Assembly: GCA_964604825.1 (NCBI GenBank)
Contig: CAZSAL010000010.1
Coordinates: 2,141 to 66,140 of the forward strand
From: an uncultured Elusimicrobia bacterium
Lineage (GTDB): Bacteria; Elusimicrobiota; Elusimicrobia; 2-01-FULL-59-12
DNA length: 64,000 nt
Direction: 5' to 3'
Made by a program: the position numbers and the translations under genes. Below, piece by piece: positions 3,397 through 55,432 of this stretch (positions within the stretch are counted from its first letter, which is position 1; the number at the start of each line of letters is the position of its first letter). The notes beneath the pieces are model-generated. The model saw nothing but the letters and a program-made list of their open reading frames with translations, was not told the DNA's origin and did not search any database.

Positions 3397-3409
3397 ATTA
3401 ATACCAGTC

Positions 3410-5533
3410 CTATCGTTTCAGAGGAATGTCAAAACCAAAGCTAGCGCCACCCAATTCGCCAGGCTGAATCAAATGCATTTTCCCGTCATATTGTGCGACT
3501 AATTCAGATGCGACGGTGAGACCCATGCCAATGCCATCCGGCTTCTTAGTGACCCCCGGCCAGAAAATCCGTTCTTCGTCTTCATGATCTATTCCAGGTC
3601 CTGAATCGTGAACTTTAATATAGAGTCGTTCTCCGTCAGATATTTTTTTAGCTCCCACTTTGATTTGGCGTTTATCTGGACCCACTTCTGATAACCAGTA
3701 AATTGCATTTGTTAGCAAATTCACGAGAATGGTTGATAGGTCGGCTGGATCAATTGCAACGATTTGAGCGGGGAATTCTTTCATACTAAGGCTGATTTTC
3801 AATTTATCTATATCCGGTTGATTCATAGCGACACATTCTTCCATGATGGTCTTTGCATCGCAATTCCGGAGTTGCTTACTTTGACTTCGATTGGCCAATG
3901 GCGCAAATGTGTTCGCTAAGTGTTCCAAAGTGTCAACTGCATGCTCAGCTAACCGAATATTTTTTTCATACGGCTTGAGAGCCTCGCTTTGATCTTCAAT
4001 GGCTTTTAGAAGCAATCGATTCAACTTGCTGATTGCGAGCAATTGATTCCTGACTTCATGAACGATAGTCGCAGCCATTATCCCAAGGCTTGCCAGACGA
4101 CTGTAATAAACAAGCCTCTTCTCAATTTGCTTGATTACTTGTTCCTGTTCGGCGGCAAACCGTTGAACAGCAGATACTAATTCTGCTGGCCCGTTCTTTT
4201 CTTTTGAAATTCGCTCAATTGTTTCCACCATTTCGCGAGGAGACAGATTCGAAAACAAATCTTTAAATGGCGGCTCCTTGTGCTTGGCTCCTTGACGGTC
4301 AGAATCTCGTTCTCGTTCAAGAACAGGGAATAATCGCGTTTTGAAAATTTCGCAGAATTGGCGAAATGCCTGATTATCTTCAAGTCTTTCTCGATCACTG
4401 GTGTCTTTAAGACGACGATTCTTATCCGCAGATATGGCGATATACCCAATAATCTGGTTTGTGCTCAGACGCACACCAACCCGACTAACTCGACGAAGAT
4501 CGATTCCCATCCAGTCGATCGCCGATCCAGATTTAGGAAGGACTAAAATTCCATCGCGGTAAAGAGAGATCCCTGACTGGGCTTTTATCGTGTCGCGAAC
4601 ATCCTTTCTGTCTAGATGGAGTTCTCCACTAAGATCTTCGAGCTCGCCAAGTGCGATATCCCAAACTCTTAATTCAAATTCAAATGGTCCACATATGAGA
4701 TCCTTTTTCCTGCGCTGAATTGGATCAGATGACGTAGTCAAGACATCCAAAGTGAATGGGACACTCCTTTTCTTCACTCGTCTACTGAAACAATATTCGG
4801 CGATTATCTTACCCGAATCATCAACCTTACCCTTTAACAAATAAGGTGGGTTCTCCAAGAATGCAGGAGGATTAATTTCAAGAGGGATGGAGCCTCCTTC
4901 GGGCAATGTTAGCCGTATTGAAAAGTTGTCCAATTGACGGAATGGTGGGATTAGCCTTGCTAGACACTCGCGCAAATTAGCAAATTCGTCTTGATCCCAT
5001 TCAGTCTTTAGATCAATAATGCGCAAAATTGTACCCGTGGAAGAAAATGGGCTCTCCTCAACCTCATCTACCCTTATCTTATACGAGTCGATATCTTCAG
5101 CGCTCTCCAGCGTGTCCCAGCTAACGTTAAATCTGAAGCAAGGACTGGCCTGTGCTTTCGTTATTACTTCAATTTCCTTTCCCAAACGAGCGGAGGACAA
5201 TCTGCCCAATCCCTTTTCTCCAGAGACACGTCTTTTCATCGCGCCTGACTTCATAAATGGCATCTTAAGGCGATACGGTGTGGCCACCACTGCCCAAACA
5301 TCCTGGATAATTTCTCGCGTCATCCCAGTTCCGTTATCTTCTATTTCGACCGCCATTGTCCCGGAGGTATTCCGAATGAACCGAACATCCACGCGTGTAG
5401 CTAAAGCATCGTAGGAATTCTTGACGAGTTCCATGATTGCGACGATATCACTGGTTACCAAATCCGCTCCTAGCGCCGCAAAGACACGAGGATGCATCCT
5501 GAATGTGACCTGGTTGTTAATTGGAGTGTTCAT
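3410..5533 (-). CDS. cytoplasmic sensor histidine kinase with an N-terminal MORC/HATPase_c_3-like GHKL ATPase domain (GHKL - linker - HisKA - HATPase_c)
   Basis: N-terminus: Bergerat N-box ELVKNSYDA, G1 EDNGTGM and G2 GEKGLGRLS, which is the HATPase_c_3/MORC type. C-terminus: H-box ATIVHEVRNQLLAI, N-box LLTNAIYW, HDSGPGID and GIGMGLTVA, a classic histidine kinase catalytic core. I found no hydrophobic TM stretch. Local GC is lower than in the core genes. Confidence 0.75.
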   Translation of the reverse strand: MNTPINNQVTFRMHPRVFAALGADLVTSDIVAIMELVKNSYDALATRVDVRFIRNTSGTMAVEIEDNGTGMTREIIQDVWAVVATPYRLKMPFMKSGAMKRRVSGEKGLGRLSSARLGKEIEVITKAQASPCFRFNVSWDTLESAEDIDSYKIRVDEVEESPFSSTGTILRIIDLKTEWDQDEFANLRECLARLIPPFRQLDNFSIRLTLPEGGSIPLEINPPAFLENPPYLLKGKVDDSGKIIAEYCFSRRVKKRSVPFTLDVLTTSSDPIQRRKKDLICGPFEFELRVWDIALGELEDLSGELHLDRKDVRDTIKAQSGISLYRDGILVLPKSGSAIDWMGIDLRRVSRVGVRLSTNQIIGYIAISADKNRRLKDTSDRERLEDNQAFRQFCEIFKTRLFPVLERERDSDRQGAKHKEPPFKDLFSNLSPREMVETIERISKEKNGPAELVSAVQRFAAEQEQVIKQIEKRLVYYSRLASLGIMAATIVHEVRNQLLAISKLNRLLLKAIEDQSEALKPYEKNIRLAEHAVDTLEHLANTFAPLANRSQSKQLRNCDAKTIMEECVAMNQPDIDKLKISLSMKEFPAQIVAIDPADLSTILVNLLTNAIYWLSEVGPDKRQIKVGAKKISDGERLYIKVHDSGPGIDHEDEERIFWPGVTKKPDGIGMGLTVASELVAQYDGKMHLIQPGELGGASFGFDIPLKR

Positions 5534-12798: not shown

Positions 12799-13253
12799 CG
12801 GAACATTCTAGCTCTTGGTTGGCCCTGCTTACACCACTGCAGGAAAGTTGCGGGGCTGCTGGCGAAAAAGCTTCCGGCGGAAGCTTCTTCGCCATCCCAA
12901 AAACACTTGCCATTTCCAGCTTCCCTGCCGTTATTTCTTATCCCAAGTCTGGACATGCGGCGAGTGAGTTAATCGCCGCAAGTCCCGTCGAAGAGGAATA
13001 GCGAACGGGATTTCCTTAGGGGGAAAGGAAAACAAAAGGTTGGATCGAGTGCGGGGAGAGCTGGTGAGCGAGTCGCCGGTTTCAGCGAAGCAGGACAGCC
13101 GGTATCGCTGTGCCGACCGGCTGTTTTGGAGGCCGGTGAGGCTGGACTGCGGAGCGGCCCGCCAGACTCCTGGCGGGAGAAACCGCCGCTTGAGCGAACG
13201 GATCGCCCCGTACTCGATCAAGACTTTGAATAAACACCCAAAGGATTTCCTGC

Positions 13254-17172: not shown

Positions 17173-17262
17173 GTCATCCCCGAATACCGCTATCGGGGAT
17201 CCATAAAATTAAAAATCCTCTATAACGACAAGGATTCCCGATTACGACCTCGGGAATGACAT
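17173..17262. repeat. two-hairpin repeat element, copy A (tcatccccga-N9-tcggggatcc ... attcccga-N8-tcgggaatgaca), downstream of rimO
   Basis: Read directly. Homologous copies at 30216-30290, 54622-54692 and 14127-14207. Confidence 0.55.
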
Positions 17263-17274
17263 GGGGGGGGCTGG

Positions 17275-31511: not shown

Positions 31512-32615
31512 TTAATTTATAAGCGAACGGTAAACATCTTCCAAGGCAAGGGAAACAACTTCGACATCAAAATACTTTTTCATCTGCTCACGACACCAGG
31601 CAGGCTGAACAGGCATGCTGCCTGCAAGCAATTCCCGCAGCGCTTTCTCAAGCGCCACGGGATCGAAGTGTTTTGGAACCATGTGGTCGCCAAAATTGGA
31701 AGCAAGGCACGCCTTGAGCGTTTCGGGCATGACCAATCCCGCTATACCGCCTTCACCTAATGCTATGACCGGAATTCCAAAAGCAAGACTTTCCATGGCG
31801 GAACGCCCTGCGGCAATGACGCCCGCAGCGCCGTTGAGAAAAGCCGGCAGATCATTTTGAAATCCCGCCAATTCAACCGTGCTCGGCGCGATTGCGGCAT
31901 TAGTCTCCCGCAGCAGCCTGGTCCATTCCTGCCGGTGCTCTTCAGGAACGTGGCCGGCTATTTGAAAATGCACCTTAGGTAAAACCGCGGCGCAATGTTT
32001 CAGCGTCGTCAGCAAAAACCTGGCAGTCTCGCGACGCCCGCCAGAGAGCCGTCCCAAGAGAACGACACGATTCTCCTTCCCCCCTTGCGGGGGAAGGTTG
32101 GGATGGGGGGTACCCCCCACCTCTGTCCTCCCCCACAAGGGGGGAGGAGGTTCTATAAAAATCCCATTTCTAATCAGAACCAGCTTCCTGATTCCTTTTG
32201 CAAAATACCGCAACAGATGCGCCTCGACCATCTCGTCGATAGCAATGGTCGCATCGCCAAGGCAGGGCCATAGTTTTGAGAAAAAATGAACAGGCGGCGG
32301 CTGGTGTATGGTTGCAACGTGAGGGATACCGGTAATCCAGGCAGCCTGCGCCGCAGCCCAGTGAGCGCGCCTGGAGTGAGAATGGATAAGATCAATTTTG
32401 TTTTTTCTGATGAAGCCTGCAATCTTCAGAGCGTTTATGAAACCGTATGGTATGGCTTTCCTTGAAATGGGTAGAGACAAATACTTCTGGCCGTAATGCA
32501 GCCGGTCGGATATCCAGAAAATCCTGTGCTTTCCCTGCCAGGCCTTTGCAAGGGTTACGCAATAAGTTTCGGATCCCGCAGGCTCGAGGCAGGACAGGAG
32601 AAAGAGGATGTTCAC
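31512..32615 (-). CDS. glycosyltransferase family 4 (GT-B) with a repeat-derived in-frame insertion
   Basis: GT4 N- and C-terminal Rossmann halves. The segment IEPPPPLWGRTEVGGTPHPNLPPQGGKE is encoded by three GC-rich hairpins at 32073-32152. Confidence 0.75.
   Translation of the reverse strand: MNILFLLSCLEPAGSETYCVTLAKAWQGKHRIFWISDRLHYGQKYLSLPISRKAIPYGFINALKIAGFIRKNKIDLIHSHSRRAHWAAAQAAWITGIPHVATIHQPPPVHFFSKLWPCLGDATIAIDEMVEAHLLRYFAKGIRKLVLIRNGIFIEPPPPLWGRTEVGGTPHPNLPPQGGKENRVVLLGRLSGGRRETARFLLTTLKHCAAVLPKVHFQIAGHVPEEHRQEWTRLLRETNAAIAPSTVELAGFQNDLPAFLNGAAGVIAAGRSAMESLAFGIPVIALGEGGIAGLVMPETLKACLASNFGDHMVPKHFDPVALEKALRELLAGSMPVQPAWCREQMKKYFDVEVVSLALEDVYRSLIN
32073..32152. repeat. three tandem GC-rich hairpins (ccttcccccc-ttgc-gggggaagg, ggggggtacccccc, cctccccc-acaa-ggggggagg) inside the GT4 gene
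   Basis: Perfect short palindromes read directly. Same family as 32631-32765, 41563-41603 and 55314-55432. Confidence 0.6.
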
Positions 32616-32630
32616 CCCACCACCTCCAGA

Positions 32631-32765
32631 CTCCTTCTCCCCTCGGGGGAGAAGGCGGGGATGAGGGGCGGTTCATCGCGGGCGATCCCCTCACCCAAAC
32701 CTCGCCAATACTTCCGGCGAGTCGCCGGACGTCTGGAGCCCTCTCCCCAAAGGGGCGAGGGAGTG
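32631..32765. repeat. intergenic cluster of GC-rich palindromic repeats (ccttctcccc-tc-ggggagaagg, ggatgagggg...cccctcaccc, ccctctcccc-aaa-ggggcgaggg) that also contains tcgccggacgtctggag
   Basis: Read directly. It lies between the GT4 start and the amidase stop. ORFs 32392..32694, 32447..32803, 32496..32843 and 32612..32794 are translations of this repeat. Confidence 0.6.
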
Positions 32766-35579: not shown

Positions 35580-38500
35580 TTATTCACCGTCTGCCGCCAT
35601 GGGCAAATCTTCAACAGGTCCCGTGGAAATAATGTCTGTATCGACACCTGCACTCACCAAATCTTCCTCCGGCCAGTTGCGGCAGAGGAGTTCCGTCTGC
35701 TTGAGCACGGTTTCGGTGGCTCTTTCCTGTTTGTCCGGCGGATACCCGTGCTCGCGGAGGAGGCGTTTGATGGTGACTCGCATTCTTGCGCGCACGGATT
35801 CTTTGAGTGACCAATCAACAGCAAGATTCTGACGAACAGACTTAACGAGGTCCCTGGCGATAGCGCCAAGAACCTTGTCCCCCAAAATTTTGACGGCGCT
35901 GTCGCTGGTTTCCAGAGCGTCGTAAAAAGCCAGTTCATCTTCGGTTAAACCAAGCTTTTCACCCCTCTTGTGCGCCTCGCGCATCTCCCTGGCAAGCTTG
36001 ATAAGTTCCTCAATGACCTGAGCCGCTTCAATGGCCCGGTTGTGGTAGCGCTGAATGGTTTCCTCAAGCATTTTGGCGAAAGACCGCGACTTCACCAGGA
36101 ACTTTCGTTCCCGAATTTTAATTTCATCTTCCAGAAGTTTCCGCAGCGCTTCCGCCGCCAGATTCTTCTGAGGCATGCGCCGCACTTCATCCAGAAACTT
36201 GTCCGAGAGAATCGATATATCCGGTTTTCCCTGACCGCTCGCCGCAAAAATATCGACCACTTTGTCTGAGTAAACCGCACCGGAAACAATCTGCCGGATG
36301 GCATTATCCAGGTCCGCCGGATCCGCGCCGCCGGCCTCGGTGTTCTTGATCAAAGAGGCCTTGATCGCCTGGAAATAGCTCACCTCATTACGAACAGCCA
36401 GGGCTTTATCATGAGGAACTGACAACGCAAATGCCTGGGACATCTCCGCGACTGCCTGAAGGAAGCGCTTCTTCCCATCCTCAACCTGCTGAAGAATATA
36501 ATCCATGCCGCCGCTCACGGCCGCTACGCGTTCCCCTGCCGTTCCTTTAAAGAACTTCCCATAGTCATATTTCCACCCGCCCGAGCCCTTAGCAGCGGGC
36601 GGGTGCGGCCGGAGAGGTTTCCCAGCCACAGGTTGGGACCCTGTCGGACCGGCGAAAATACCGCGCAGCACTTCAAGTTTCTCCAGGAGTTTCGCAACAG
36701 CTATTTCCTGATCAATACCCGCAGCCTTCCGGTCCCGCTCCGAGTACTCGGCCAGGGCGGCTTTCAGCTCGTGGGCAATGCCCAGATAATCCACGACCAG
36801 CCCGCCCGGTTTATCCTTAAAAACCCGGTTCACCCGTGCAATGGCCTGCATCAAACCATGCCCGCGCATGGGCTTGTCGATATACATCGTATGGAGAGAC
36901 GGCACATCAAACCCGGTCAGCCACATATCCCGCACAATCACCAGCCTGATGGGACACTCCGGCTTTTTGAATTCGTCCCCCAGCCGCTTGCGTCGCTCTT
37001 TATCGCGGATATGTGCCTGCCACTCCGGACCGTCCGCCGCTGATCCAGTCATCACTACCTTCAGAAATCCCTTTTTATCGTCCGGATCATGCCATAGAGG
37101 GCGAAGCTTGACGATTTCGTTATAAAGGTCAACGCAGATACGGCGGCTCATGCAGACGATCAGCCCTTTGCCTTCCATGGCTTCCCGCCGTTTCTCAAAA
37201 TGCTCCACGATATCCTTTGCGATAAGCCTGATTCGCCTCTCCGCTCCAACCAATGCTTCCATGCGCGCCCACTTGGTCTTAAGCTTTCGCTGGACGTTTT
37301 CCTCTTCGCCCTCCGTGACTTCTTCAAACTGAGGATCGATCTTCGGCATTTCTTCGGGTTTGAGGCCGAGCTTGGCCAGGCGGGCTTCGTAATAAATGGG
37401 AACTGTGGCCTTATCTTCGATTGATTGATGGATATCGTAAATATCGATGTAATCACCGAAAACCGCCCGCGTGTTGCGGTCGCCTGCCTCAATCGGCGTA
37501 GCGGTGAACCCGATGAACGAGGCTTGCGGCAGGCAGTCCCGCATATGCTTAGCCAGGCCTTTAATGAAATCGTATTGGGACCGGTGCGCCTCATCCGCGA
37601 TCACAACAATATTGCGCCGATCAGAAAGCAAAGGATTCGTGTCCCGTTCGCTATTCCTTTTCGACGGGACCTGCAGCGATGAACTCATCCGCTGCAGATC
37701 ACCTTTCTGGTCTGGCAGGAACTTCTGAATCGTCGTAAATATGACACCGCCTGAGGCGCGCTTGAGAAGCTCCCGGAGATGTACCCTGCTGGTCGATTGG
37801 ATGGGCGCCTGAGCAAGAAGATCCGAACAAGGCACAAAGGTCCTGTCAAAAAGCTGGTCATCCAGATCGTTGCGATCAGTGAGAAGGACCAGGGTAGGAT
37901 TTTTCATCTCCGGATGCTGGATTATTTTCCCTGCATAAAAAACCATGGTCAGGCTTTTACCCGAGCCCTGAGTGTGCCAGACAACTCCCGCCCGCCTGTC
38001 TCCCTTGACGGCCTTGACCGTAGCTTCAATTGCCTTTTGCACCGCATGGAACTGATGATAGCTGGTCATCTTTTTGATGGTGGTTTTCTCGCCATGCTCG
38101 AAGACCGTGAAATAACGGATCAAATCCAGGAAGCGTTTCTTTTCGAACATACCCTTGATGAGCACTTCAAGCTGCGGCCGGCTTGAAGGGGCCAACTCGC
38201 GCCCGTCCACAGTCCGCCAGGGCATGAAGCGTTCCCAATCCGATGAAACAGTTCCCGCTCTTGCGGCGAGACCGTCGGAGATAATCAGCGGCCCGGCGAA
38301 CTGAAACAAAGAAGGAATTTCCTCCTTGTATGTCTCGAATTGTTTGAAGGCTTCCCGGACGGACGTTTGCTCCTTGGCAGGATTCTTCAATTCAAAGACA
38401 GCGAGCGGCAGGCCGTTCACAAAAATCACAACATCCGGCCTCCGGTTATGCTGATTTTCAATAACCGTGAACTGATTCACAACCAGCCAGTCATTAGCTT

Positions 38501-38921
38501 CAGCATCGTCAAAATCGATCAGCCGCGCATGATCAGATACCGTTCGCCCGTCGCCCTGATAATCTACCGGAACGCTTTCGATCAGATATTTATGAAACTG
38601 TTCGTTATTCTGCAGCAGGCTGGGATGTTCACTTCGCAGGACTTTACGGAAGGCATCGTCTAAAGCATCAGCAGGAATTTTCGGATTCAGCTTCGCCAGC
38701 GCCGATTTCAACCGCCCCGGCAGGACAACTTCTTCGTAGCTAGACCGCTCTGCGGGCCCATCAATCGCAACGGTGAAACCTCTTTGCGATGGTGCCGCTT
38801 CCGCTGCCGCAACAGGGAGCGGCGCAGGGGCAATGTCCGGGCCATGAGCGATAGAGTAGCCTAGGCTTTCCAGCCATTCAAGCGCGGCGTCTTCAGCGGT
38901 GGATTCGGTGATCGGGTTCAC
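35580..38921 (-). CDS. hsdR: type I restriction enzyme R subunit HsdR
   Basis: HSDR_N, the ResIII/DEAD helicase motifs ([12 protein letters not shown]-like [11 protein letters not shown]) and the C-terminal domain. 1113 aa. Confidence 0.9.
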
Positions 38922-38923
38922 AA

Positions 38924-39970
38924 CTATTTCTTTTTCCTCTTCCCGTGGGGTGGCGTAAGTTTTTTGATTTTTTCCACCACTTTATCGAAGTCGGACACCG
39001 GCTGGTTAGCTTCGATCCGCCGCCGGGTCTCCTCGTATTTCCCAAACTCGTCCTCAGCATGAGCGGCCGCGAGCTCATGCGATACCCTGCCAGCATGCGA
39101 CAGAATATTGCGTTCGTTGAACTGGAGAAAACCATCCAGTTTTTTCACCCAGTCCGCCATCTTCATCGGCGTGCGCCTGCGCGCCTGATCCTCGGCGTAA
39201 TCGAGATACATGGCGACCACGCGGTTCAACTCGCGCAGTTCTTCCTCATTCAGGTAGTTCTTGGCTACGGTAACGTCGGACCGGCGGATATGGCCTCTGG
39301 GTGCGTTCTTCCACGTAGTCAGTCCCATATTCGGCTTGCCGGCGTCCGCCCGGCCATAAATAATCTCTGCCGCCGTGTGCCCGTGAATCGCCCAATGCAG
39401 TTTGTTTTGCACTGTGGAGTAGAACGTCTGCGTGATCTCCGCCTGGGCATCATAATCGATGCTGCACTGCGCATAGATGTCGGTGATCTTCTGGTAGAAC
39501 CGCCGCTCCGAAGCCCGGATATCACGGATGCGTTCCAGCAACTCATCAAAATAATCTGCGCCCAGGTTGGCTCCGGACTTGAGGCGTTCGTCATCCATCG
39601 TAAACCCTTTGACAATGTACTCCCGCAGACGCTGTGTCGCCCAGATGCGGAATTGCGTGCCTCGTTGGGACTTCACGCGGTATCCCACAGAGATAATGAC
39701 GTCCAGGTTGTAGAACTGTGTCCGATAATTTTTCCCATCAGGGGCAGTCGTCAAGGAATCCTTGACAACTGAATCTTCAGACAATTCTTTCTCGGAAAAG
39801 ATATTTTTGATATGCAGACTGACATTTTGCTTCGTTGTTTGAAGCAACTCCGCGATCTGATTTTGAGTGAGCCAGACCGTTTCGTTTTCCAAACGTACAT
39901 CCAGCCGGGTCTGCTTATCTTCCGTCTGGTAGATTAGAATTTGAGATTGTTCAGAAGGTTCTTTCTTCAT
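38924..39970 (-). CDS. RhuM family virulence/Fic-associated protein
   Basis: The conserved RhuM core (..[17 protein letters not shown]..). It is inserted between hsdS and hsdR, and its GC is lower than the flanking genes. Confidence 0.8.
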
Positions 39971-40165
39971 TTAAATACTTCCCTCCATCAAATCTTGGCT
40001 ACACGTCCACTCAGGTAAAGATTCCTCATGCGCGATCTCTGGCCCGTGAGCGATGCGGTAGCCAAGACTTCCCATCCATTCAAGAGCGGCGGCGGCGGTG
40101 GATTCGGAGAACTTTGTAATTCTACTCATCTCTTGGGAGAAAGTTTGGGGTTTCTCCAGACCCAA
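39971..40165 (-). pseudogene. duplicated fragment of the hsdR 5' end (HSDR_N N-terminal ~45 aa)
   Basis: ESTAAAALEWMGSLGYRIAHGPEIA aligns with the HsdR N-terminus [26 protein letters not shown]. Nucleotide identity is roughly three quarters by eye. Confidence 0.5.
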
Positions 40166-40902
40166 GGTAGCGGTTTAGGTGTGTATCCGGTTAATCCCAA
40201 CTTGATTTGATTTTCGATAGCTGGACGGAGTAAGTCCAAGTTTTGACGTAGTGCATCAATATCATCCTGGAGCAATTCAAAGTCAAACGATTTCTCGCTT
40301 AAATTTACTTTAAAGGGTGACCGGATCTGAAAATGGATGGAATATTTTCCGGCTTTCCACCAAAAGTGTTTCTTGTATTCCTCTACAAGCTTATGTACTT
40401 GCTCGCTCGCCATTAATTTATCGTGATAGTTGGGTTCCGCCTTCATCAGATATGACTGATGGGCAGTCGCCTCATTCATGGGAGAAGCTACCTCCTGATG
40501 AAATTCAGTATCTTGAAATCGAACAAATTTCTGGGTCAGCATTAGTGTGCTGAGTTTGAGGGCAATTGCATCATCACTCCGCTCGACCACCTGTTTTTTA
40601 CCCATTTCATCGCTGATCTCGCTGAATTTCTCAGACATGCCCATCCAAGTTAAAACGTGTGTGTCATGGTCGGAATGACGGACGGTGACATAAATCTCGT
40701 TCAAAATCACATCTTTGCGTTCGACAGCAAGGCCCAGCCGTATATTAAGAATTGGGCCGAACGTCGTATATCCTAATTCGATCTGCTTGTTCGGAATTAT
40801 CGTCACGATCGGCTTCGCGTATGCTTTATAACCCCATCGGAATATTTGGGGAATCCAGGCAGCAGCTCCAATATATGCAGCAACATCGGCTGGGTTAGTC
40901 AT
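40126..40902 (-). CDS. hypothetical protein (258 aa) embedded in the type I R-M operon
   Basis: No recognisable motif. Low local GC. It sits in the hsdS-hsdR slot, which typically hosts abortive-infection/anticodon-nuclease-type cargo. Confidence 0.5.
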   Translation of the reverse strand: MTNPADVAAYIGAAAWIPQIFRWGYKAYAKPIVTIIPNKQIELGYTTFGPILNIRLGLAVERKDVILNEIYVTVRHSDHDTHVLTWMGMSEKFSEISDEMGKKQVVERSDDAIALKLSTLMLTQKFVRFQDTEFHQEVASPMNEATAHQSYLMKAEPNYHDKLMASEQVHKLVEEYKKHFWWKAGKYSIHFQIRSPFKVNLSEKSFDFELLQDDIDALRQNLDLLRPAIENQIKLGLTGYTPKPLPWVWRNPKLSPKR

Positions 40903-42152
40903 ATTGTTCTCCTCTGGGTTGTATTAACATGGACATGACAAAGCAAATGAATTTTCCCCGACATCAGCTTCGGCAGCAGGGCGTCGCGTATGGCGGCGAG
41001 TTTTTTGGACTGCTCTTCGTTGTTCTCGATCATTTGATCCAAAGGGTATGCGAATTGTTCAAAGGCATCTATTAACTCTTTAGGCGGTGATGCATGTTTA
41101 ATGTTGCAGAAATCATTTTTCCCAATTGATCCGAAGACAGTGCCTTCAGCTTCGAAAGATGCAAAGGATTCGTTCAGAAAATGCATCGAGTAGTAAGTGT
41201 ACGAACGGCTGCCGCTTTTATGCCGAATTGCGGCAACCCCGCGTCCAATGCAACATTCCCTCAGCGTTAAATTTATATCTCCAACTGGAGCGCGAACGCT
41301 GACAAGCGTATCACCTGCCTGCGCTCGTCTAGTAGGTGCAGTGCAATAAACGCGAGATGTTGGGTAGCGGAATCCAAAATCTGTTCGCCCTTGGTAGAAT
41401 TCCATTCCCCCTCCAACCTCATTATATGTATCGCCTGGAGGTGATTGGCCCATAGTGAGGTTAAATTCCTCACCTATCGTGCTAAGCTGCCAACCCTTCG
41501 GAATTTCGCCGAGCGGAGAGTCCTGGAAGGAATCTGGAAAGAGATCGAGGATGTCCTTATTCCACCCCTCACCCACACCCTCTCCCCCTTGGGGGCGAGG
41601 GAATTTATAAGGGCGGCCTTGCATCTTTGCGCGGACGGGATCGAAATCTACAAACCAAGACTTAAAAATCGCCCGCGCCATGGCCTCCAGCGTCGTGTTC
41701 ATCTTCCGATTCAGCTCGATCTTGTCGTCAAGCGTGCTAAGGATGGCAGCAAGTCCTACCTGTTCCTCAACCGGAGGGATTTCGACTGGCAAGCTGTAAA
41801 ACGAATCCCGGCTTGTCGAAGGAATGGCTGAACCACTATCCATTCTATTGATATCGTAAGTGAGCAGCTTGTAATACGCCCACTTCAAATCAAGTTCAAT
41901 TTTTGGCTTGAGATAAAAGGCAGTATCTATCACAAAAAAGGGCTTGGCTGAATAATGGATTCCTCGATACGCCCCTTTGCGACCGACAATGACCCCCGGA
42001 TGCGGGCACAAAGGCTCCGAGTGCATCCCGATTGGCCCATTTGTTCCATAAACCGGATATGGGCCAGTACCGTCCTCGTATCCACGAAGACTTTGGCCAT
42101 ATTCCAAAGTTACTGCATCACCCCAACGCATTTCTCTCCACTCACCCGCCAT
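40899..42152 (-). CDS. hsdS: type I restriction enzyme specificity subunit HsdS
   Basis: Two target-recognition domains, a conserved central region (FKSWFVDFDPV...LFPDSF..LGEIPKGW) and the C-terminal LPK..M motif. The central spacer carries a ~12-aa repeat-encoded insertion (PRPQGGEGVGEGW). Confidence 0.85.
   Translation of the reverse strand: MAGEWREMRWGDAVTLEYGQSLRGYEDGTGPYPVYGTNGPIGMHSEPLCPHPGVIVGRKGAYRGIHYSAKPFFVIDTAFYLKPKIELDLKWAYYKLLTYDINRMDSGSAIPSTSRDSFYSLPVEIPPVEEQVGLAAILSTLDDKIELNRKMNTTLEAMARAIFKSWFVDFDPVRAKMQGRPYKFPRPQGGEGVGEGWNKDILDLFPDSFQDSPLGEIPKGWQLSTIGEEFNLTMGQSPPGDTYNEVGGGMEFYQGRTDFGFRYPTSRVYCTAPTRRAQAGDTLVSVRAPVGDINLTLRECCIGRGVAAIRHKSGSRSYTYYSMHFLNESFASFEAEGTVFGSIGKNDFCNIKHASPPKELIDAFEQFAYPLDQMIENNEEQSKKLAAIRDALLPKLMSGKIHLLCHVHVNTTQRRTI
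41563..41603. repeat. GC-rich palindromic repeat (cccctcaccc / ccctctccccc-ttg-ggggcgaggg) inserted in-frame in the hsdS central region
   Basis: Same motif family. It encodes RPQGGEGVGEGW between the FDPV and LFPD conserved blocks. Confidence 0.55.
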
Positions 42153-42187: not shown

Positions 42188-43360
42188 TCACGCAGAGCGT
42201 TCCGTTCCTTCGGCTAGAATCTTGATATAAGGATCGTAAATGAAAATGCGGCCGCGAAGCTTCCCGGTAAACTCTCGGGCAATTGCAAATTTTTGTAGAT
42301 ACATCATCGCTTTGTTCACGGCAGGAAAAGAAAGTTTGAGCTCTCTTTCTGCGTCGGCCAGGGAAATAACTCCATGCTTTCTCAATAAGGTATGCACGCG
42401 CAATGCTGTCATGCCAGCCTTGCCAAGTTTTTGGATTTGATGACTATGATCTTCAAACATAGTTAAAAGTCTTTTGACGGTATCAGCCGCCTGGTTGGAA
42501 ACCTCCTCCACCCCTCGTAAATAAAAGGCCATCCACCCTTCCCAATCTCCGTGCGTACGGATTCTTTGCAGAACCTCGTTATACTCTTCCCGATGTTGCT
42601 TGAAGTGGAGACTCAAATAAAGAAGGGGCTGGGACAGCGCACCTTCTGCACAGAGAATAAAGGTGATCAATAAACGGCCCAGGCGGCCATTGCCATCGAG
42701 AAAAGGGTGAATGGTCTCAAACTGAGCATGGGCCAAGCCAGCCTTAACCAGGGTGGCAGTCTGTATTGGATCTCCATGAAGAAACTTTTCCAAGGCCCCC
42801 ATGGCAGGCATCACTTCATGCGGCGGTGGCGGCACATAGCGTGCGGTGCCGGGCCGCGTTCCACCGAACCAGTTTTGGGAACGGCGAAACTCCCCGGGTT
42901 CTTTGTCGCTACCGCGAGTATCCTTGAGCAACAGGGCGTGTATTTCTTTAAGAAGTCGAAGGCTTAGAGGGAATCCCTCTTTCAATCGCGCAAGCCCATG
43001 ACTCATAGCGGCCACATAATTCGAAACCTCCTTTACGTCGGCCAGGGGAACACCAGGAGTTTGCTTATTTTCGTAAAGCAACAAATCAGAAAGAGATGAT
43101 TGCGTCCCCTCAATTTGGGAAGAGAGGATGGCCTCCTTTCGGATGTACATGTAGAGGAATAGGGTGGGATCTGGCAAAAGGGTCGTAATTCCTTCGAGGC
43201 GACCTAATGCACGGTTGGCTCGTTCATGAGCAGCAGTATCCAACGTGACCGGTGGCGTTGGCGGCAACGGCGATGGGATGAACAAAACAAAAGGCTCAGG
43301 TCCTGACTGTTTCTCCCAGCGGCCTGATCTTATGCTTTTTATGGGGTCAAAATCTATCAT
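42188..43360 (-). CDS. Fic family protein (AMPylation/Doc-like)
   Basis: Fic motif HPFLDGNGRLGR and a C-terminal winged HTH. Confidence 0.85.
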   Translation of the reverse strand: MIDFDPIKSIRSGRWEKQSGPEPFVLFIPSPLPPTPPVTLDTAAHERANRALGRLEGITTLLPDPTLFLYMYIRKEAILSSQIEGTQSSLSDLLLYENKQTPGVPLADVKEVSNYVAAMSHGLARLKEGFPLSLRLLKEIHALLLKDTRGSDKEPGEFRRSQNWFGGTRPGTARYVPPPPHEVMPAMGALEKFLHGDPIQTATLVKAGLAHAQFETIHPFLDGNGRLGRLLITFILCAEGALSQPLLYLSLHFKQHREEYNEVLQRIRTHGDWEGWMAFYLRGVEEVSNQAADTVKRLLTMFEDHSHQIQKLGKAGMTALRVHTLLRKHGVISLADAERELKLSFPAVNKAMMYLQKFAIAREFTGKLRGRIFIYDPYIKILAEGTERSA

Positions 43361-43459: not shown

Positions 43460-45007
43460 TTAAACACGTTTCAGATTATCTCGAATAACAGCCTCCAAAC
43501 AGGCACTTTTGGCAAATTGTTCCTCTAGTTGCTTGGTGAGCCGTTTCATCTTTTCTTCAAAGGGTTCGCCGTCATCCTCCACAGCTTCCGCGCCGACATA
43601 GCGGCCGGGTGTAAGCACATGACCGTGAGAGGAAATCTCTTCCAGCCTGGCGCTTTTACAAAAACCGGGGATATCTTCGTACTTGCCAGCTTCTTTCTCT
43701 CCCCGCCAGGCATGGTAGGTTTTCGCAACGCGGGCGATTTCCTCATCCGTGAGTTCACGGTGCGTGCGATCAATCAGGTGGCTGAGCTTGCGGGCGTCAA
43801 TGAAAAGGGTCTGGCCGCGTCTATCACGAAACTTTCCATTCTTCTTGTCCCGAGCGATGAACCACAGACAGGCGGGAATCATTGCTCCATAGAAAAGTTG
43901 ACCTGGCAGGGCAATCATGCAGTCCACCAGATCGGCTTCGATGATTTTCTTGCGAATTTCGCCTTCCCCGCTGGTATTGGAAGACATCGATCCATTAGCC
44001 AATACGAAACCTGTAATGCCTGTCGGGGCCAGATGGTGAATCATGTGCTGGATCCAGGCGTAATTGGCGTTACCCGCAGGCGGCGCTCCATACTTCCAGC
44101 GCACGTCATCCCGCAAACGCTCTCCTCCCCAGTCTTTGAGGTTGAATGGGGGATTGGCAAGGATAAAGTCAGCTTTTAAATCTTTGTGCAGGTCATTGTG
44201 GAAGGTGTCCGCATTTTGAGGCCCGAGGTTGGCTTCGATCCCGCGAATGGCAAGGTTCATTTTGGCCAGACGCCAGGTTGTTGGGTTGGATTCCTGGCCG
44301 AAGATCGCGATATCGTCCCGTCTGCCGCCATGAGCTTTGATAAATTCCTCGCTCTGCACAAACATGCCGCTCGAACCGCAGCAGGGATCATACACACGCC
44401 CTTTATAAGGCTCGATCATTTCGACAAGGAGCTTTACGACGCAGCGCGGTGTATAAAATTCTCCGCCCTTTTTCCCTTCCGCGCTCGCAAATTTGCTCAG
44501 GAAGTATTCGTAGACCCGGCCAAGAATATCTTTTGAACGGCTTTCCTTGTCACCCAGGCCGATGGTGCCAATTAAATCGATAAGCTCGCCTAGCCGGTGT
44601 TTATCTAGATCAGGTCGAGCATAAATTTTCGGAAGAACCCCTTTGAGCGAAGGGTTATCCTTCTCAATGGCGACCATAGCGTCGTCAATCAGTTTGCCAA
44701 TCGTCGGCTTCTTCGCATTATCTTGAAGGCGAGTCCAGCGCGCTTCTTTTGGCACCCAGAACACATTGGCCGCAGTGTATTCATCACGGTCTTCCGGGTC
44801 AGCGCCTTTTTCCTTTGCCAGCTTCGCGCGATGTTCCTCAAAAGCGTCTGAAATGTACTTGAGAAATATGAGCCCCAACGCAACGTGTTTATACTCGCCC
44901 GGGTCCATGTGCCCGCGCATCTTGTCCGCAGCGGACCAGAGCTTTTCCTCAAACCCAAGGTTCGCGCCGTTGCCGTTTTGCTTAACAGATTTCATTTCAC
45001 GCGCCAT
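43460..45007 (-). CDS. hsdM: type I restriction-modification N6-adenine methyltransferase subunit HsdM
   Basis: HsdM N-terminal domain, SAM motif, and the catalytic LANPPFN. Confidence 0.9.
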
Positions 45008-45121: not shown

Positions 45122-45748
45122 TTACTTGGCGGCGGGTTTCCAGAATGGGGTTTCGTAGCGTGAACGTTCCTGAGGGATGTTCAGATTCATCCCGGTCTCA
45201 ATGCGATCAAAATCAGGGATAGCATCGTGGTTGGCTTTCCAGATGGCAACCCATCCGGCGCCGCGATGAACAGGGGAATGTCTTGCCGCTATATCCCATA
45301 ACGTATCGCCGCGGCGTACGGCGTAATACCCGGGAGGAAGACCGGCAATTTTTGTTCTAAATTCCTTTACCGACTGCCATGCCGTGTGCGCTTCCGCCAT
45401 GGCAACATCATACTGCTCCCTGCTGATAAGCTCCTTGGCGTTGCGCAAAGGCGTAGAAATAGTTGGGACATCGCCGAAATGCTCCCTCAAGGGCTTATAA
45501 GCCTCACCAATTACGGCGACGCTTGCAACCACGGTTCTTCTGAGACGTTCCATCGCCGTGTTTTCCTCGCGACGGGCTTCCACGGCAGAGGCAACGCGCG
45601 TTTGCTGTTCATCACAAACGGCTCGCGCATGGCGCAAAGCTAAAATCCCTTCCTCTTCCACGCTGTTGATTCGAGCAACCAGAAAACCATAGCCAGCGGC
45701 AATAGAGCCGAAAAAAATCATTAACAATTGAAAACGAGTGAATCGCAT
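45122..45748 (-). CDS. LysM domain membrane protein
   Basis: N-terminal TM segment, coiled region, and C-terminal LysM (YYAVRRGDTLWDIAARH...). Confidence 0.65.
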   Translation of the reverse strand: MRFTRFQLLMIFFGSIAAGYGFLVARINSVEEEGILALRHARAVCDEQQTRVASAVEARREENTAMERLRRTVVASVAVIGEAYKPLREHFGDVPTISTPLRNAKELISREQYDVAMAEAHTAWQSVKEFRTKIAGLPPGYYAVRRGDTLWDIAARHSPVHRGAGWVAIWKANHDAIPDFDRIETGMNLNIPQERSRYETPFWKPAAK

Positions 45749-45799: not shown

Positions 45800-45957
45800 A
45801 CGACAGTAACAACAGTAACTAAAGGGCCGAGTAACTACAGGGCCGAGCAAAGGCGGGAACTAAAAACGGAAGGGTCGAAAAACATCGGTAACTACAGTTC
45901 CGAGCTCGGCCTTTTTGTTACTGTCGTTGCTCGGCCCTTTTGTTACTGTTGTTAGAA
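45800..45957. repeat. complex inverted/tandem repeat (units gacagtaacaacagtaac and agggccgag(c)) forming a long imperfect hairpin upstream of the DUF360 gene
   Basis: cgacagtaacaacagtaactaaagggccgag...gggccgagcaa is mirrored by ttgctcggccc..ttgttactgtcgttgctcggcccttttgttactgttgtta. Confidence 0.5.
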
Positions 45958-46353
45958 TCTCCAGAGGCGGAAGCGGACTTTTATTTCGCGGCGTTCGTGG
46001 AAGATCCAGCTGAGGGCCGTACTGAACAGGGAAAAAAGAAGCGATCCGACGATTGCCCAGCCGTAGTTTCGGATCATCAGTCCCCGGATAATATAGCCCG
46101 CGCTGAAAAATATGGCGGCGTTCAAAAGAATAGTGAAAAATCCTAATGTGATAATGTTCAAGGGCAGAGTCAGGAAAAGAAGCACGGGACGGACAAAAGC
46201 ATTTAGCAAACCAAGAACCAGAGCGCCGAATATGCAGGATTCCCATCCCCGGAACCACACTCCCCCGCGAAGGCAGAGCGCCGTAAGCATCAGCGCAATC
46301 GTATTAACAAACCAGCGAAGAAAGAAAACTTTCATTCCGTCTTTCCTTACCAA
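45952..46353 (-). CDS. DUF360/YvlD-type 4-TM membrane protein ('phage holin 4' superfamily)
   Basis: Four hydrophobic helices, about 130 aa. Confidence 0.5.
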   Translation of the reverse strand: MVRKDGMKVFFLRWFVNTIALMLTALCLRGGVWFRGWESCIFGALVLGLLNAFVRPVLLFLTLPLNIITLGFFTILLNAAIFFSAGYIIRGLMIRNYGWAIVGSLLFSLFSTALSWIFHERREIKVRFRLWRF

Positions 46354-54556: not shown

Positions 54557-54621
54557 TGAAAAATCGCAACTTCTTGAGCTATTTTAACTTTCCATTCCTG
54601 CCATTGCAAAAGCGCCCTCGT

Positions 54622-54692
54622 GTCATTCCCGAAGCCTCAATCGGGAATCCAATTTCTTTTTCAATTGGATCCCCGCATACGCGGGGATGAGA
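54622..54692. repeat. two-hairpin repeat element, copy C (tcattcccga-N8-tcgggaatcc ... atccccgc-atac-gcggggatga), upstream of ndk
   Basis: Same stem sequences in swapped order. Confidence 0.5.
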
Positions 54693-55313: not shown

Positions 55314-55432
55314 CACCCTCGCCCCTTGCGGGAGAGGGTAGGGTGAGGGGTAAGGCCTCTAAGAATTTGCACTAAGGACCCCTCACCCGCGCTTTGCGCG
55401 GCCTCTCCCCAAAAGGGAGAGGCGATTAAATG
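55314..55432. repeat. intergenic GC-rich palindromic repeat cluster between the convergent ndk and tkt genes. Probably a bidirectional terminator.
   Basis: ccctcgcccc-ttgc-gggagaggg, gggtgagggg-N28-cccctcaccc, ccgcgc-tttg-cgcgg, and cctctcccc-aaaa-gggagagg. Confidence 0.55.

What the first reader, a model, noticed from the sequence alone, without database searches (positions are those of the whole stretch)
41563..41603. The same palindromic repeat inserted in the HsdS central spacer region. Possible specificity-altering event.
Between the conserved FVDFDPV and LFPDSF blocks, the HsdS central region is about 12 aa longer than usual. The extra residues (PRPQGGEGVGEGW) are encoded by the GC-rich repeat. 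In type I enzymes the length of this central segment sets the spacing between the two half-sites (the EcoR124I/II precedent). A repeat insertion here could therefore change or switch target specificity.
Basis: partly seen in the sequence, partly recalled or inferred. Interest (0 to 1): 0.65.

Follow-up and report, generated by a model that had tools for sequence, protein, structure and literature searches.

The report
BoxC repeat inserted in-frame in hsdS
A 37-base copy of a widespread GC-rich repeat (BoxC, also called the "triplex motif") sits in frame in a naturally variable loop of a type I restriction specificity gene; it adds 13 residues outside the helical "ruler" that sets target spacing, so it is most likely a tolerated passenger and not a specificity switch.

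Summary
The hsdS gene (40899-42152, minus strand, 417 aa) carries a 37-nt GC-rich repeat unit at 41565-41601. Together with two more bases it adds 13 codons (FPRPQGGEGVGEG) between the FVDFDPV and LFPDSF blocks. That segment is 30 aa here and 17-18 aa in most homologues.

The repeat is a known family: BoxC, also called PIT or TMECO (the "intrastrand triplex motif"). The hsdS copy matches the published pattern exactly.

The proposed consequence, a change in half-site spacing as in EcoR124I/II, is not supported.
- That precedent involves a tandem 12-bp repeat inside helix D1 of the coiled coil. Here the insert lies after that helix, in a coil.
- Both ruler helices have no gaps against 25 homologues, and the models of this protein and of an insert-free homologue give them the same lengths.
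- The linker ranges from 11 to 58 aa across the family.
- Two other lineages carry in-frame palindromic repeats in the same linker: an independent BoxC unit and a GTAG-REP doublet.

In-frame repeats are common in this (probably Elusimicrobiota) genome. A glycosyltransferase and the hsdR gene of the same operon each carry one. Real genes in other phyla carry in-frame BoxC units too. The closest analogue is the Rickettsia palindromic elements. A methylome would settle the spacing question.

The parts
40899..42152 (-). hsdS, type I specificity subunit, 417 aa, intact ORF
   Evidence: ORF list; Pfam Methylase_S; PDB sequence hits 5YBB_D, 3OKG, 1YF2; AlphaFold pLDDT 91.6, pTM 0.86; Foldseek top hits are HsdS structures
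41565..41601 (-). BoxC / PIT / TMECO repeat unit, 37 nt, with the G-rich strand as the hsdS sense strand: CCCTCGCCCCCAAGGGGGAGAGGGTGTGGGTGAGGGG
   Evidence: Exact match to the published pattern CCCTCNCCC-N3-6-GGGNGAGGG-N3-GGGNGAGGG (pattern; regex). Differs from the E. coli K-12 copies in Table 1 of PMC4666352 almost only in the two loops
41565..41603 (-). Inferred 39-nt (13-codon) insertion encoding FPRPQGGEGVGEG (residues 184-196). The exact ends are ambiguous by a few bases
   Evidence: Alignments with homologues; in-silico removal restores the modal 17-aa linker and starts at a codon boundary
41649..41771 (-). Central conserved helix (D1/CR1), residues 128-168, one half of the coiled-coil ruler; not altered
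   Evidence: DSSP on the AlphaFold model gives H128-168 here and in insert-free P0003; no gaps in alignment A1
41544..41633 (-). Linker between D1 and TRD2 (residues 174-203, RAKM...ILD), the variable-length segment that holds the insert
   Evidence: Length spread 11-58 aa in homologues; coil 179-198 with pLDDT 66-70
40962..41081 (-). C-terminal conserved helix (D2/CR2), residues 358-397, second half of the ruler; not altered
   Evidence: DSSP H358-397 against H345-383 in P0003; no gaps in A1
43460..45007 (-). hsdM (N6_Mtase + HsdM_N), intact
   Evidence: Pfam, E 1e-108
35580..38921 (-). hsdR, 1113 aa, intact. Carries its own in-frame 57-nt palindromic repeat of a different family at about 37642-37698
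   Evidence: Pfam; an 83%-identical HsdR in L002 lacks exactly [19 protein letters not shown]; second copy of that repeat at 12956-13010
32075..32147 (.). Degenerate BoxC-like doublet (two inverted units), in frame inside glycosyltransferase ORF 31512-32615 (-), between its two Rossmann-type domains
   Evidence: Pfam Glyco_transf_4 14-152 and Glyco_trans_1_4 182-330; alignment with homologues
32633..32761 (.). Intergenic BoxC-like doublet with extra internal sequence
55316..55422 (.). Intergenic BoxC-like doublet between the convergent ndk and transketolase-like genes

Best explanation
A single unit of the interspersed repeat family BoxC (also PIT or TMECO; a hairpin plus a third G-rich block) became inserted in hsdS together with two extra bases, 39 nt in all. 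The insertion lies in the stretch that encodes the linker between the central conserved helix (D1) and the second target-recognition domain.

The insertion survived for three reasons. Its length is a multiple of three. The unit is open in five of six reading frames. In this frame it encodes a Gly/Pro/Glu-rich peptide that loops out of a linker already variable in length.

The two conserved helices that form the antiparallel coiled coil, and so set the distance between the two DNA-reading domains, are unchanged. The enzyme is therefore expected to recognise the same bipartite site with the same gap as before the insertion. The insert is best seen as tolerated selfish or passenger DNA, analogous to Rickettsia palindromic elements in coding genes.

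Shown: the identity of the repeat, the in-frame insertion, its position outside the helices, the variability of the linker, and recurrence of such insertions. Inferred: neutrality for specificity. The mechanism by which BoxC units spread is unknown.
For: Identity of the repeat:
- Exact match to the published TMECO pattern.

Insertion:
- 13 extra residues relative to the modal 17-18-aa linker.
- Removing 39 nt at a codon boundary restores 17 aa.

Position:
- The AlphaFold model (pLDDT 91.6) has helix 128-168, coil 179-198 (pLDDT 66-70) and helix 358-397.
- Insert-free P0003 has the same helix 128-168, coil 178-185 and helix 345-383.
- No gaps in either helix in 25 homologues.

Permissive site:
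- Linker lengths range from 11 to 58 aa.
- HsdS genes next to HsdM proteins clustered with this one at 90% identity or more carry other inserts at this position.
- An independent TMECO type-B unit sits in the same linker of P0250 (L125).
- A GTAG-REP doublet sits in the same linker of P0067, and the gene downstream has a faint Y1_Tnp (RAYT-like) hit (L126).

General phenomenon:
- In-frame repeats occur in the glycosyltransferase and in hsdR, where a related gene shows the empty site.
- In-frame TMECO units occur in class I aminoacyl-tRNA synthetase, LigA, VgrG, UvrA-like and NuoE/F-like genes of other bacteria.

Principle:
- Helix length sets the gap, the TAEL repeat lies in D1, and the two halves need not be in one chain (PMC3874165).
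- The unit is open in 5 of 6 frames.
- The scan reported no promoter-like or terminator-like site at the unit; the two sites it did report lie elsewhere in 41200-42000.
Against: - No methylome or biochemical data exist, so an unchanged specificity is inferred, not shown.
- No near-identical hsdS allele without the insert exists in the databases searched; the next best hit is 67% identical. The insertion is therefore inferred from distant homologues.
- In insert-free P0003 the linker is predicted with high confidence (pLDDT 96-98). It may pack against the protein, so 13 extra residues could perturb TRD2 positioning or HsdM binding.
- AlphaFold's low confidence for the insert partly reflects the absence of homologous sequence in the alignment.
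- In E. coli all 23 copies are intergenic, so intragenic copies may carry a cost.
Confidence: 0.75

Rival explanations
1. One reading: the 13 extra residues change the distance or rotation between the two TRDs, and so alter the length of the non-specific gap in the recognition site, as with EcoR124I versus EcoR124II.
For: The insert lies between the two TRDs in the primary sequence. The insert-free linker is predicted as ordered (pLDDT 96-98), so it may help position TRD2. Changes in gap length in type I enzymes are real.
Against: The EcoR124 change is a tandem 12-bp repeat inside helix D1. Here the helices have no gaps against homologues and are modelled at the same lengths. The insert is in a coil, and linker length varies 11-58 aa in the family. 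TRDs work even when not covalently joined (HsdS delta50) and after circular permutation.
Confidence: 0.07
2. The insertion damages HsdS (misfolding, poor HsdM binding, or impaired translation through the hairpin or G-rich tract). On this reading the R-M system is hypomorphic or on its way to decay.
For: The same operon has a second in-frame repeat in hsdR. The sense-strand RNA folds strongly around the unit (-36.3 kcal/mol over 81 nt, z -2.4) and carries a G-quadruplex-type motif at 41565-41588. In E. coli all copies are intergenic.
Against: hsdM, hsdS and hsdR are all full-length with complete domain sets. Every intragenic repeat seen is in frame, as expected if selection still acts. Comparable inserts in the same linker are found in other lineages, one apparently inherited and decayed (P0250 and P0272). 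Apart from residues 181-200, internal pLDDT stays at about 76 or above.
Confidence: 0.12
3. The segment is not an insertion of a mobile repeat. It is a lineage-specific native loop that resembles the repeat by chance or through compositional convergence.
For: No empty-site allele of this particular hsdS was found. The family has many different native-looking linker extensions, for example the 23-aa RWxRGxSLPGLP type.
Against: The 37 nt match the published pattern of 25 specified bases exactly. None of 100 shuffles matched the 24-nt core even with 3 mismatches allowed. The sequence is nearly identical to E. coli copies outside the loops, and related units are dispersed in the window.
Confidence: 0.02

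Closest known systems
BoxC / PIT element / TMECO 'intrastrand triplex motif' of E. coli and other bacteria (Holder et al. 2015, PMC4666352)
   Same: The sequence pattern matches exactly: C-rich block, loop, G-rich block, 3-nt loop, second G-rich block, about 36 nt. It occurs both as single units and as inverted pairs, is dispersed, and has no known transposase.
   Different: In E. coli K-12 all 23 copies are intergenic. This copy is intragenic and translated. The host is probably an Elusimicrobiota MAG, whereas the published TMECO census reported 262 proteobacterial genomes. Loop 2 is TGT, not TTA or CCG, which removes a stop codon in one frame.
Rickettsia palindromic elements (Ogata et al. 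2000, as summarised in PMC10969869)
   Same: Both are palindromic interspersed repeats inserted in frame in unrelated protein-coding genes. They add a peptide without breaking the ORF, at positions compatible with the fold.
   Different: The sequences are unrelated. RPEs are about 150 bp, against 37 nt here (up to about 75 nt for doublets). RPEs are confined to Rickettsia, whereas BoxC-type in-frame copies were seen here in several phyla.
EcoR124I / EcoR124II TAEL repeat (type IC gap-length switch)
   Same: Both are length changes in the central part of hsdS caused by repeated DNA.
   Different: TAEL is a tandem 12-bp repeat inside helix D1 that changes by unequal crossing-over and adds about one helical turn. 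Here a single interspersed unit lies in the coil after D1, and the helices are unchanged.
REP / REPIN elements mobilised by RAYT (Y1) transposases
   Same: Both are short GC-rich palindromic units found as singlets and inverted doublets. A GTAG-REP doublet sits in frame in the same HsdS linker in P0067, and the gene downstream has a faint Y1_Tnp hit.
   Different: The BoxC unit has no GTAG head and has a third block beyond the hairpin. A linked RAYT was not looked for in this window, and none is reported for BoxC.
Half-size and circularly permuted HsdS (EcoR124I delta50, EcoDXXI deltaC, EcoAI cp380)
   Same: They show that the junction between the first half (TRD1-D1) and the second half (TRD2-D2) can be cut or rearranged without losing DNA recognition. 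That junction is where this insert lies.
   Different: Those are truncations or engineered permutations, not insertions. Truncation changes specificity to a symmetric site.

Membership tests
BoxC / PIT / TMECO repeat | Matches 5'-CCCTCNCCC N3-6 GGGNGAGGG N3 GGGNGAGGG[G/T/C/-]-3' | tested here: met
   A regex on both strands finds exactly one match, 41565-41601 on the minus strand. The pattern is quoted from PMC4666352.
BoxC / PIT / TMECO repeat | Multi-copy and dispersed in the genome, partly as inverted pairs | tested here: met
   Six further degenerate units lie at three loci in the 64-kb window, all as inverted pairs. Only the hsdS copy meets the strict pattern. Whole-genome copy number is unknown.
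BoxC / PIT / TMECO repeat | Intergenic location (as in E. coli K-12, 23 of 23 copies) | tested here: not met
   The unit lies inside hsdS and is translated. Intergenic location describes the E. coli copies and is not part of the sequence definition.
BoxC / PIT / TMECO repeat | The single strand folds into a purine-motif intrastrand triplex in vitro | not testable with these tools
   The three blocks needed are present. Only the hairpin could be computed.
Type I R-M specificity subunit (HsdS) | Two TRDs alternating with two conserved helices that form a coiled coil | tested here: met
   Pfam Methylase_S on TRD1; TRD2 matches 5YBB_D/3OKG; model with helices 128-168 and 358-397; Foldseek top hits 5YBB, 3OKG, 1YF2, 1YDX, 7BST.
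Type I R-M specificity subunit (HsdS) | Encoded with hsdM and hsdR | tested here: met
   hsdM 43460-45007 and hsdR 35580-38921 lie on the same strand, with fic, rhuM and an unknown gene interspersed.
EcoR124I/II-type gap-length switch | The length change lies inside conserved helix D1 of the coiled coil | tested here: not met
   The insert is at residues 184-196, in a coil after helix 128-168. The helices match those of the insert-free homologue in length.
EcoR124I/II-type gap-length switch | Tandem short repeat (12 bp) able to expand or contract by unequal crossing-over | tested here: not met
   It is a single interspersed 37-nt unit with no tandem copy.
EcoR124I/II-type gap-length switch | Altered number of unspecified bases in the recognition sequence | not testable with these tools
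   This needs methylome or cleavage data.
[quoted passage not shown] | A palindromic interspersed repeat inserted in frame, with the ORF preserved | tested here: met
   The same holds in the glycosyltransferase and hsdR.
[quoted passage not shown] | Sequence homology to the Rickettsia RPE families | not tested
   No RPE sequence was compared. By size (about 150 bp against 37 nt) and lineage this is an analogue, not a member (PMC10969869).
REP / REPIN with RAYT | GTAG-type head on the palindrome and a linked Y1 (RAYT) transposase | tested here: inconclusive
   The unit has no GTAG or CTAC head. A RAYT in the window or the rest of the genome was not searched for. The REP doublet in L126 does show these features.

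The most novel reading that the evidence does not exclude
The BoxC unit could make the junction between the two halves of hsdS a hypermutable site. BoxC/TMECO loci are reported to be deletion-prone (PMC4666352). An imprecise deletion or slippage here would shift the reading frame exactly after TRD1-D1. The resulting half-size HsdS could dimerise and impose a new symmetric specificity, as EcoR124I delta50 does. A broader version: the D1-TRD2 linker of this HsdS family is a preferred landing site for palindromic repeats (two BoxC events and one REP doublet seen here), and this variation is selected.
Probability: 0.05. Interest if true: 0.65.

Novelty: new member of a known kind. Interest (0 to 1): 0.3.

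Why it matters
For this locus the result is mainly corrective. A repeat in the middle of hsdS is not automatically a specificity switch, because what counts is whether the coiled-coil helices change, and here they do not.

The wider value is modest but real. BoxC/TMECO units are described as strictly intergenic in E. coli. Here they turn up translated, in frame, in real genes of several phyla (hsdS twice, a glycosyltransferase, class I aminoacyl-tRNA synthetases, LigA, VgrG, UvrA-like). One operon carries two different in-frame repeats. This extends the Rickettsia "selfish DNA in coding genes" picture to a pan-bacterial repeat family. It also marks protein linkers that tolerate insertions, which is useful for engineering HsdS and for annotating odd Gly/Pro/Glu-rich inserts.

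Tried and rejected
- Empty-site allele of this hsdS: none found. Apart from the identical protein, the best of 8000 hits is 67% identical, so strain-level presence or absence could not be tested. HsdS genes next to HsdM proteins clustered at 90% identity or more (L002-L004) have different TRDs and are only 36-40% identical overall.
The organism was inferred only from SHMT hits, whose named relatives are all Elusimicrobia/Elusimicrobiota MAGs at 70-74% identity.
- Literature search for 'EcoR124II TAEL spacer': no hits. The review PMC3874165 was used instead.
It was rerun without that row.
- Terminator or promoter role for the unit: rejected. The scan found neither at the unit, there is no T-run after the hairpin, and PMC4666352 reports that earlier work found no promoter or terminator activity for these elements.
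- Assembly artefact: rejected, because three separately deposited contigs encode the same protein.
- The 3-D position of the loop relative to DNA or HsdM could not be measured, because model coordinates are not exposed. Only DSSP and pLDDT were available.

Full report
**What is at the coordinates.** The minus-strand ORF 40899-42152 encodes a 417-aa type I specificity subunit. Pfam Methylase_S covers residues 4-156. The second half matches the solved HsdS of Thermoanaerobacter tengcongensis (5YBB_D, 3OKG; E about 2e-39) and 1YF2. The AlphaFold model (mean pLDDT 91.6, pTM 0.86) retrieves HsdS structures as its best Foldseek matches. The gene lies in an operon-like row on the minus strand: hsdM, fic, hsdS, an unknown gene, rhuM, hsdR.

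On the sense strand, 41565-41601 reads CCCTCGCCCCCAAGGGGGAGAGGGTGTGGGTGAGGGG and is translated PRPQGGEGVGEG. The 24-nt palindromic core occurs once in the window, and none of 100 shuffles matched it even with three mismatches allowed. The protein with this insert was recovered from three separately deposited contigs, so it is not an assembly artefact.

**Is it an insertion?** In an alignment with 25 full-length homologues (55-67% identity) the conserved blocks ...KSWFVDFDPV and LFPDSF... line up, and the window protein has extra residues between them.
- In 72 aligned sequences (71 homologues plus the window protein) this segment is 17 aa in 29, 18 aa in 14 and 23 aa in 9. The window has 30.
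- A search of 1.84 billion representative proteins with the central 116 aa gave the same picture. The segment could be located in 138 of the best 150: 17 aa in 76, 18 aa in 29, 23 aa in 15, and up to 42.
- Deleting 39 nt (41565-41603: the 37-nt unit plus two bases, starting at a codon boundary) leaves RAKMQGRPYKWNKDILD, 17 aa, the modal length.

The excess is 13 aa.

**What the repeat is.** Related units occur at 32075-32147, 32633-32761 and 55316-55422. Each of these is a pair of inverted units; the hsdS copy is a single unit. A full-text search for GGGTGAGGGG led to Holder et al. 2015 (PMC4666352). That paper describes the element earlier called BoxC or PIT and there named TMECO, with the pattern CCCTCNCCC-N3-6-GGGNGAGGG-N3-GGGNGAGGG.
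- The hsdS unit matches this pattern exactly and is the only exact match in the window.
- It differs from the E. coli K-12 copies almost only in the two loops.
- The paper reports that all 23 E. coli K-12 copies are intergenic, that no mobile-element association was found, that earlier work saw no promoter or terminator activity, and that loci carrying the motif are unusually variable between strains.
These came from Proteobacteria, Acidobacteriota, Planctomycetota, Methylomirabilota, Rokuibacteriota, Nitrospinaceae, Omnitrophota, Verrucomicrobiaceae, Atribacterota and others.
- The window itself probably comes from an Elusimicrobiota MAG. All named relatives of its serine hydroxymethyltransferase are Elusimicrobia/Elusimicrobiota, at 70-74% identity.

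According to Loenen et al. 2014 (PMC3874165), that switch is a 12-bp repeat encoding TAEL, present two or three times inside D1, the first of the two helices that form the antiparallel coiled coil. It is the length of these helices that sets the gap. The same review notes that the two TRDs need not be in one polypeptide (HsdS delta50 recognises GAA N7 TTC) and that circular permutation at the corresponding junctions is tolerated.

Here the insert is not in a helix.
- DSSP on the model gives helix 128-168, a short helix 171-178, coil 179-198 (the insert is 184-196; pLDDT about 66-70), then TRD2, and the C-terminal helix 358-397.
- The insert-free homologue P0003 (66% identical), modelled the same way, has the same helix 128-168, a short helix 171-177, coil 178-185 and C-terminal helix 345-383.
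- In secondary structure the one clear difference is a coil of 20 residues instead of 8.
- Neither conserved helix has a gap in alignment A1.

The defining features of the EcoR124 mechanism (a change inside D1; a tandem repeat) were therefore tested and not met. What could not be tested is the recognition sequence itself.

**The linker is a permissive site hit repeatedly.**
- Linker length ranges from 11 to 58 aa in the family.
- HsdS genes next to HsdM proteins clustered with this one at 90% identity or more carry other small inserts at the same place (L002/L003: RRRQGYGGQV and VLSAEALSKVD; L004: DGSTSLTTK).
- P0250, from an unrelated metagenome, has ...HPLPLGEGRGEG... in this linker. Its DNA (L125) contains CCCTCTCCCACTGGGAGAGGGCCGGGGTGAGGG, a TMECO unit with the type-B loop, at a different position and with different flanks. 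This is an independent BoxC insertion. P0272 looks like a decayed relative of it.
- P0067 (54% identical to the window HsdS) has RRGEPMCSPTKGADTQVCPY in the linker. This is encoded by two inverted GTAG-headed REP units (GTAGGGGCGAACC...GGGCAGACACGCAGGTCTGCCCCTAC). Further copies of the same REP lie around and within a gene just downstream that has a faint Y1_Tnp (RAYT-like) hit (L126).

At least three separate in-frame palindromic-repeat insertions have thus survived in this linker. That argues for tolerance, not for a special functional role of any one of them.

**Why such a unit can survive in a gene.** The hsdS unit has a stop codon in only one of six frames. In the frame used it encodes Pro, Gly and Glu residues typical of flexible loops. 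Other intragenic copies mostly use the same frame (PSPxxGEGxGEG) or the GERVRVRG frame.

Among 138 pattern matches in the 120 fetched stretches, 19 match-and-frame combinations (at 15 loci) lie in frames open for at least 150 codons on both sides. Pfam confirmed real genes around several of these:
- class I aminoacyl-tRNA synthetases (L009, and L087 with a doublet);
- NAD-dependent DNA ligase, with the adenylation domain split by the insert (L016);
- VgrG (L032);
- a UvrA-like protein with two copies (L102);
- a NuoE/NuoF-type protein (L054);
- a UvrD-like helicase (L100), where the unit lies after the recognised helicase domains, so this case is less certain.

In this window:
- The glycosyltransferase ORF 31512-32615 carries a degenerate doublet between its two domains. 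The insert is shared with its closest homologue (57% identity). It is half-present in another, replaced by a different BoxC-like peptide in a third, and absent from ten others.
- hsdR carries a 57-nt two-hairpin repeat of a different family (second copy at 12956-13010). An 83%-identical HsdR lacks exactly the 19 residues [19 protein letters not shown], a clean empty site.

All three intragenic repeats in the window leave their ORFs open. The two whose lengths could be fixed, 39 nt and 57 nt, are multiples of three. This is what purifying selection acting on random insertions would leave behind. The closest known analogue is the Rickettsia palindromic elements (PMC10969869).

**Other possible effects.** The sense-strand RNA around the unit folds strongly (-36.3 kcal/mol over 81 nt, z -2.4). 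The G-rich part fits a G-quadruplex motif (41565-41588). An effect on translation or mRNA stability cannot be excluded. The scan reported no promoter-like or terminator-like site at the unit.

**Verdict.** The repeat belongs to a known family (BoxC/PIT/TMECO). The insertion is real, in frame, and located in a variable coil outside the coiled-coil ruler. The specificity-switch interpretation rests on a precedent whose defining features are not met here. I put it at about 7%, inactivation or hypomorphy at about 12%, and a tolerated passenger insertion at about 75%.

Novelty is limited: this is a new, intragenic member of a known repeat family, behaving like known in-frame palindromic elements. 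The side observation that BoxC units are translated in real genes across phyla, and that the HsdS D1-TRD2 linker has been hit repeatedly, may deserve a systematic census.

Noticed in passing
window 31512-32615 (-), repeat at 32075-32147: A family-4 glycosyltransferase carries a degenerate BoxC-like doublet in frame between its two domains (EPPPPLWGRTEVGGTPHPNLPPQGGKEN). The closest homologue (P0130, 57% identical) has the same insert. P0131 has half of it, P0138 has a different BoxC-like peptide at the same spot, and ten others have none.
   Followed up: yes
window about 37642-37698 inside hsdR (35580-38921, -); second copy 12956-13010: A different 55-57-nt two-hairpin repeat is inserted in frame in the helicase domain of hsdR, just before the DEAH motif. 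An 83%-identical HsdR (L002) lacks exactly [19 protein letters not shown], giving a clean empty site.
   Followed up: yes
L009, L016, L032, L054, L087, L100, L102 (genome-contig loci): Exact TMECO units lie in frame inside real genes of other bacteria: class I aminoacyl-tRNA synthetases, NAD-dependent DNA ligase, VgrG, a UvrA-like protein (two copies) and a NuoE/F-type protein. A UvrD-like helicase (L100) is less certain, because the unit lies after its recognised domains. In E. coli the element is reported as strictly intergenic.
   Followed up: partly
L125 987-1037 (P0250); P0272: An independent TMECO type-B unit is translated (HPLPLGEGRGEG) in the same HsdS linker in an unrelated metagenome. 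P0272 looks like a decayed descendant sharing the VRRNMxR flank.
   Followed up: yes
L126 2529-2589 (in hsdS of P0067) and 3300-4050: A GTAG-headed REP doublet is translated in the same HsdS linker. Further copies of the same REP lie around and within a 226-aa gene immediately downstream of hsdS that has a faint Y1_Tnp (RAYT-like) hit.
   Followed up: partly
L002 9120-9160 and 9200-9240; L004 4925-4950: HsdS genes next to HsdM proteins clustered with the window's at 90% identity or more carry other short inserts in the same linker. One is flanked by a GTCCGT direct repeat. Whether they derive from repeats was not determined.
   Followed up: no
window 17232-17267 and 54615-54650: Another inverted-repeat family was seen (GGATTCCCGATTACGACCTCGGGAATGACATGGGGG and its complement; 36 nt, 83% complementary). 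It was not examined.
   Followed up: no
window 45807-45954: This is a dense cluster of tandem 25-nt direct repeats and 34-36-nt inverted repeats (GCTCGGCC(C)TTTTGTTACTGT...). It starts just downstream of ORF 45122-45748 and overlaps the weak ORFs at 45860-46353. Its function is unknown.
   Followed up: no
window 41565-41588 (-) and 55330-55350 (+): The G-rich half of the BoxC units fits the canonical G-quadruplex motif (G3+N1-7, four times). In hsdS it lies on the mRNA sense strand.
   Followed up: no
window 38924-39970, 40126-40902, 42188-43360: The type I R-M operon is interrupted by a Fic-domain gene (between hsdM and hsdS), a 258-aa gene with no Pfam hit, and a RhuM-family gene (between hsdS and hsdR). 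Related operons carry Fic with a trypsin-like protease, or RhuM, at these positions.
   Followed up: no
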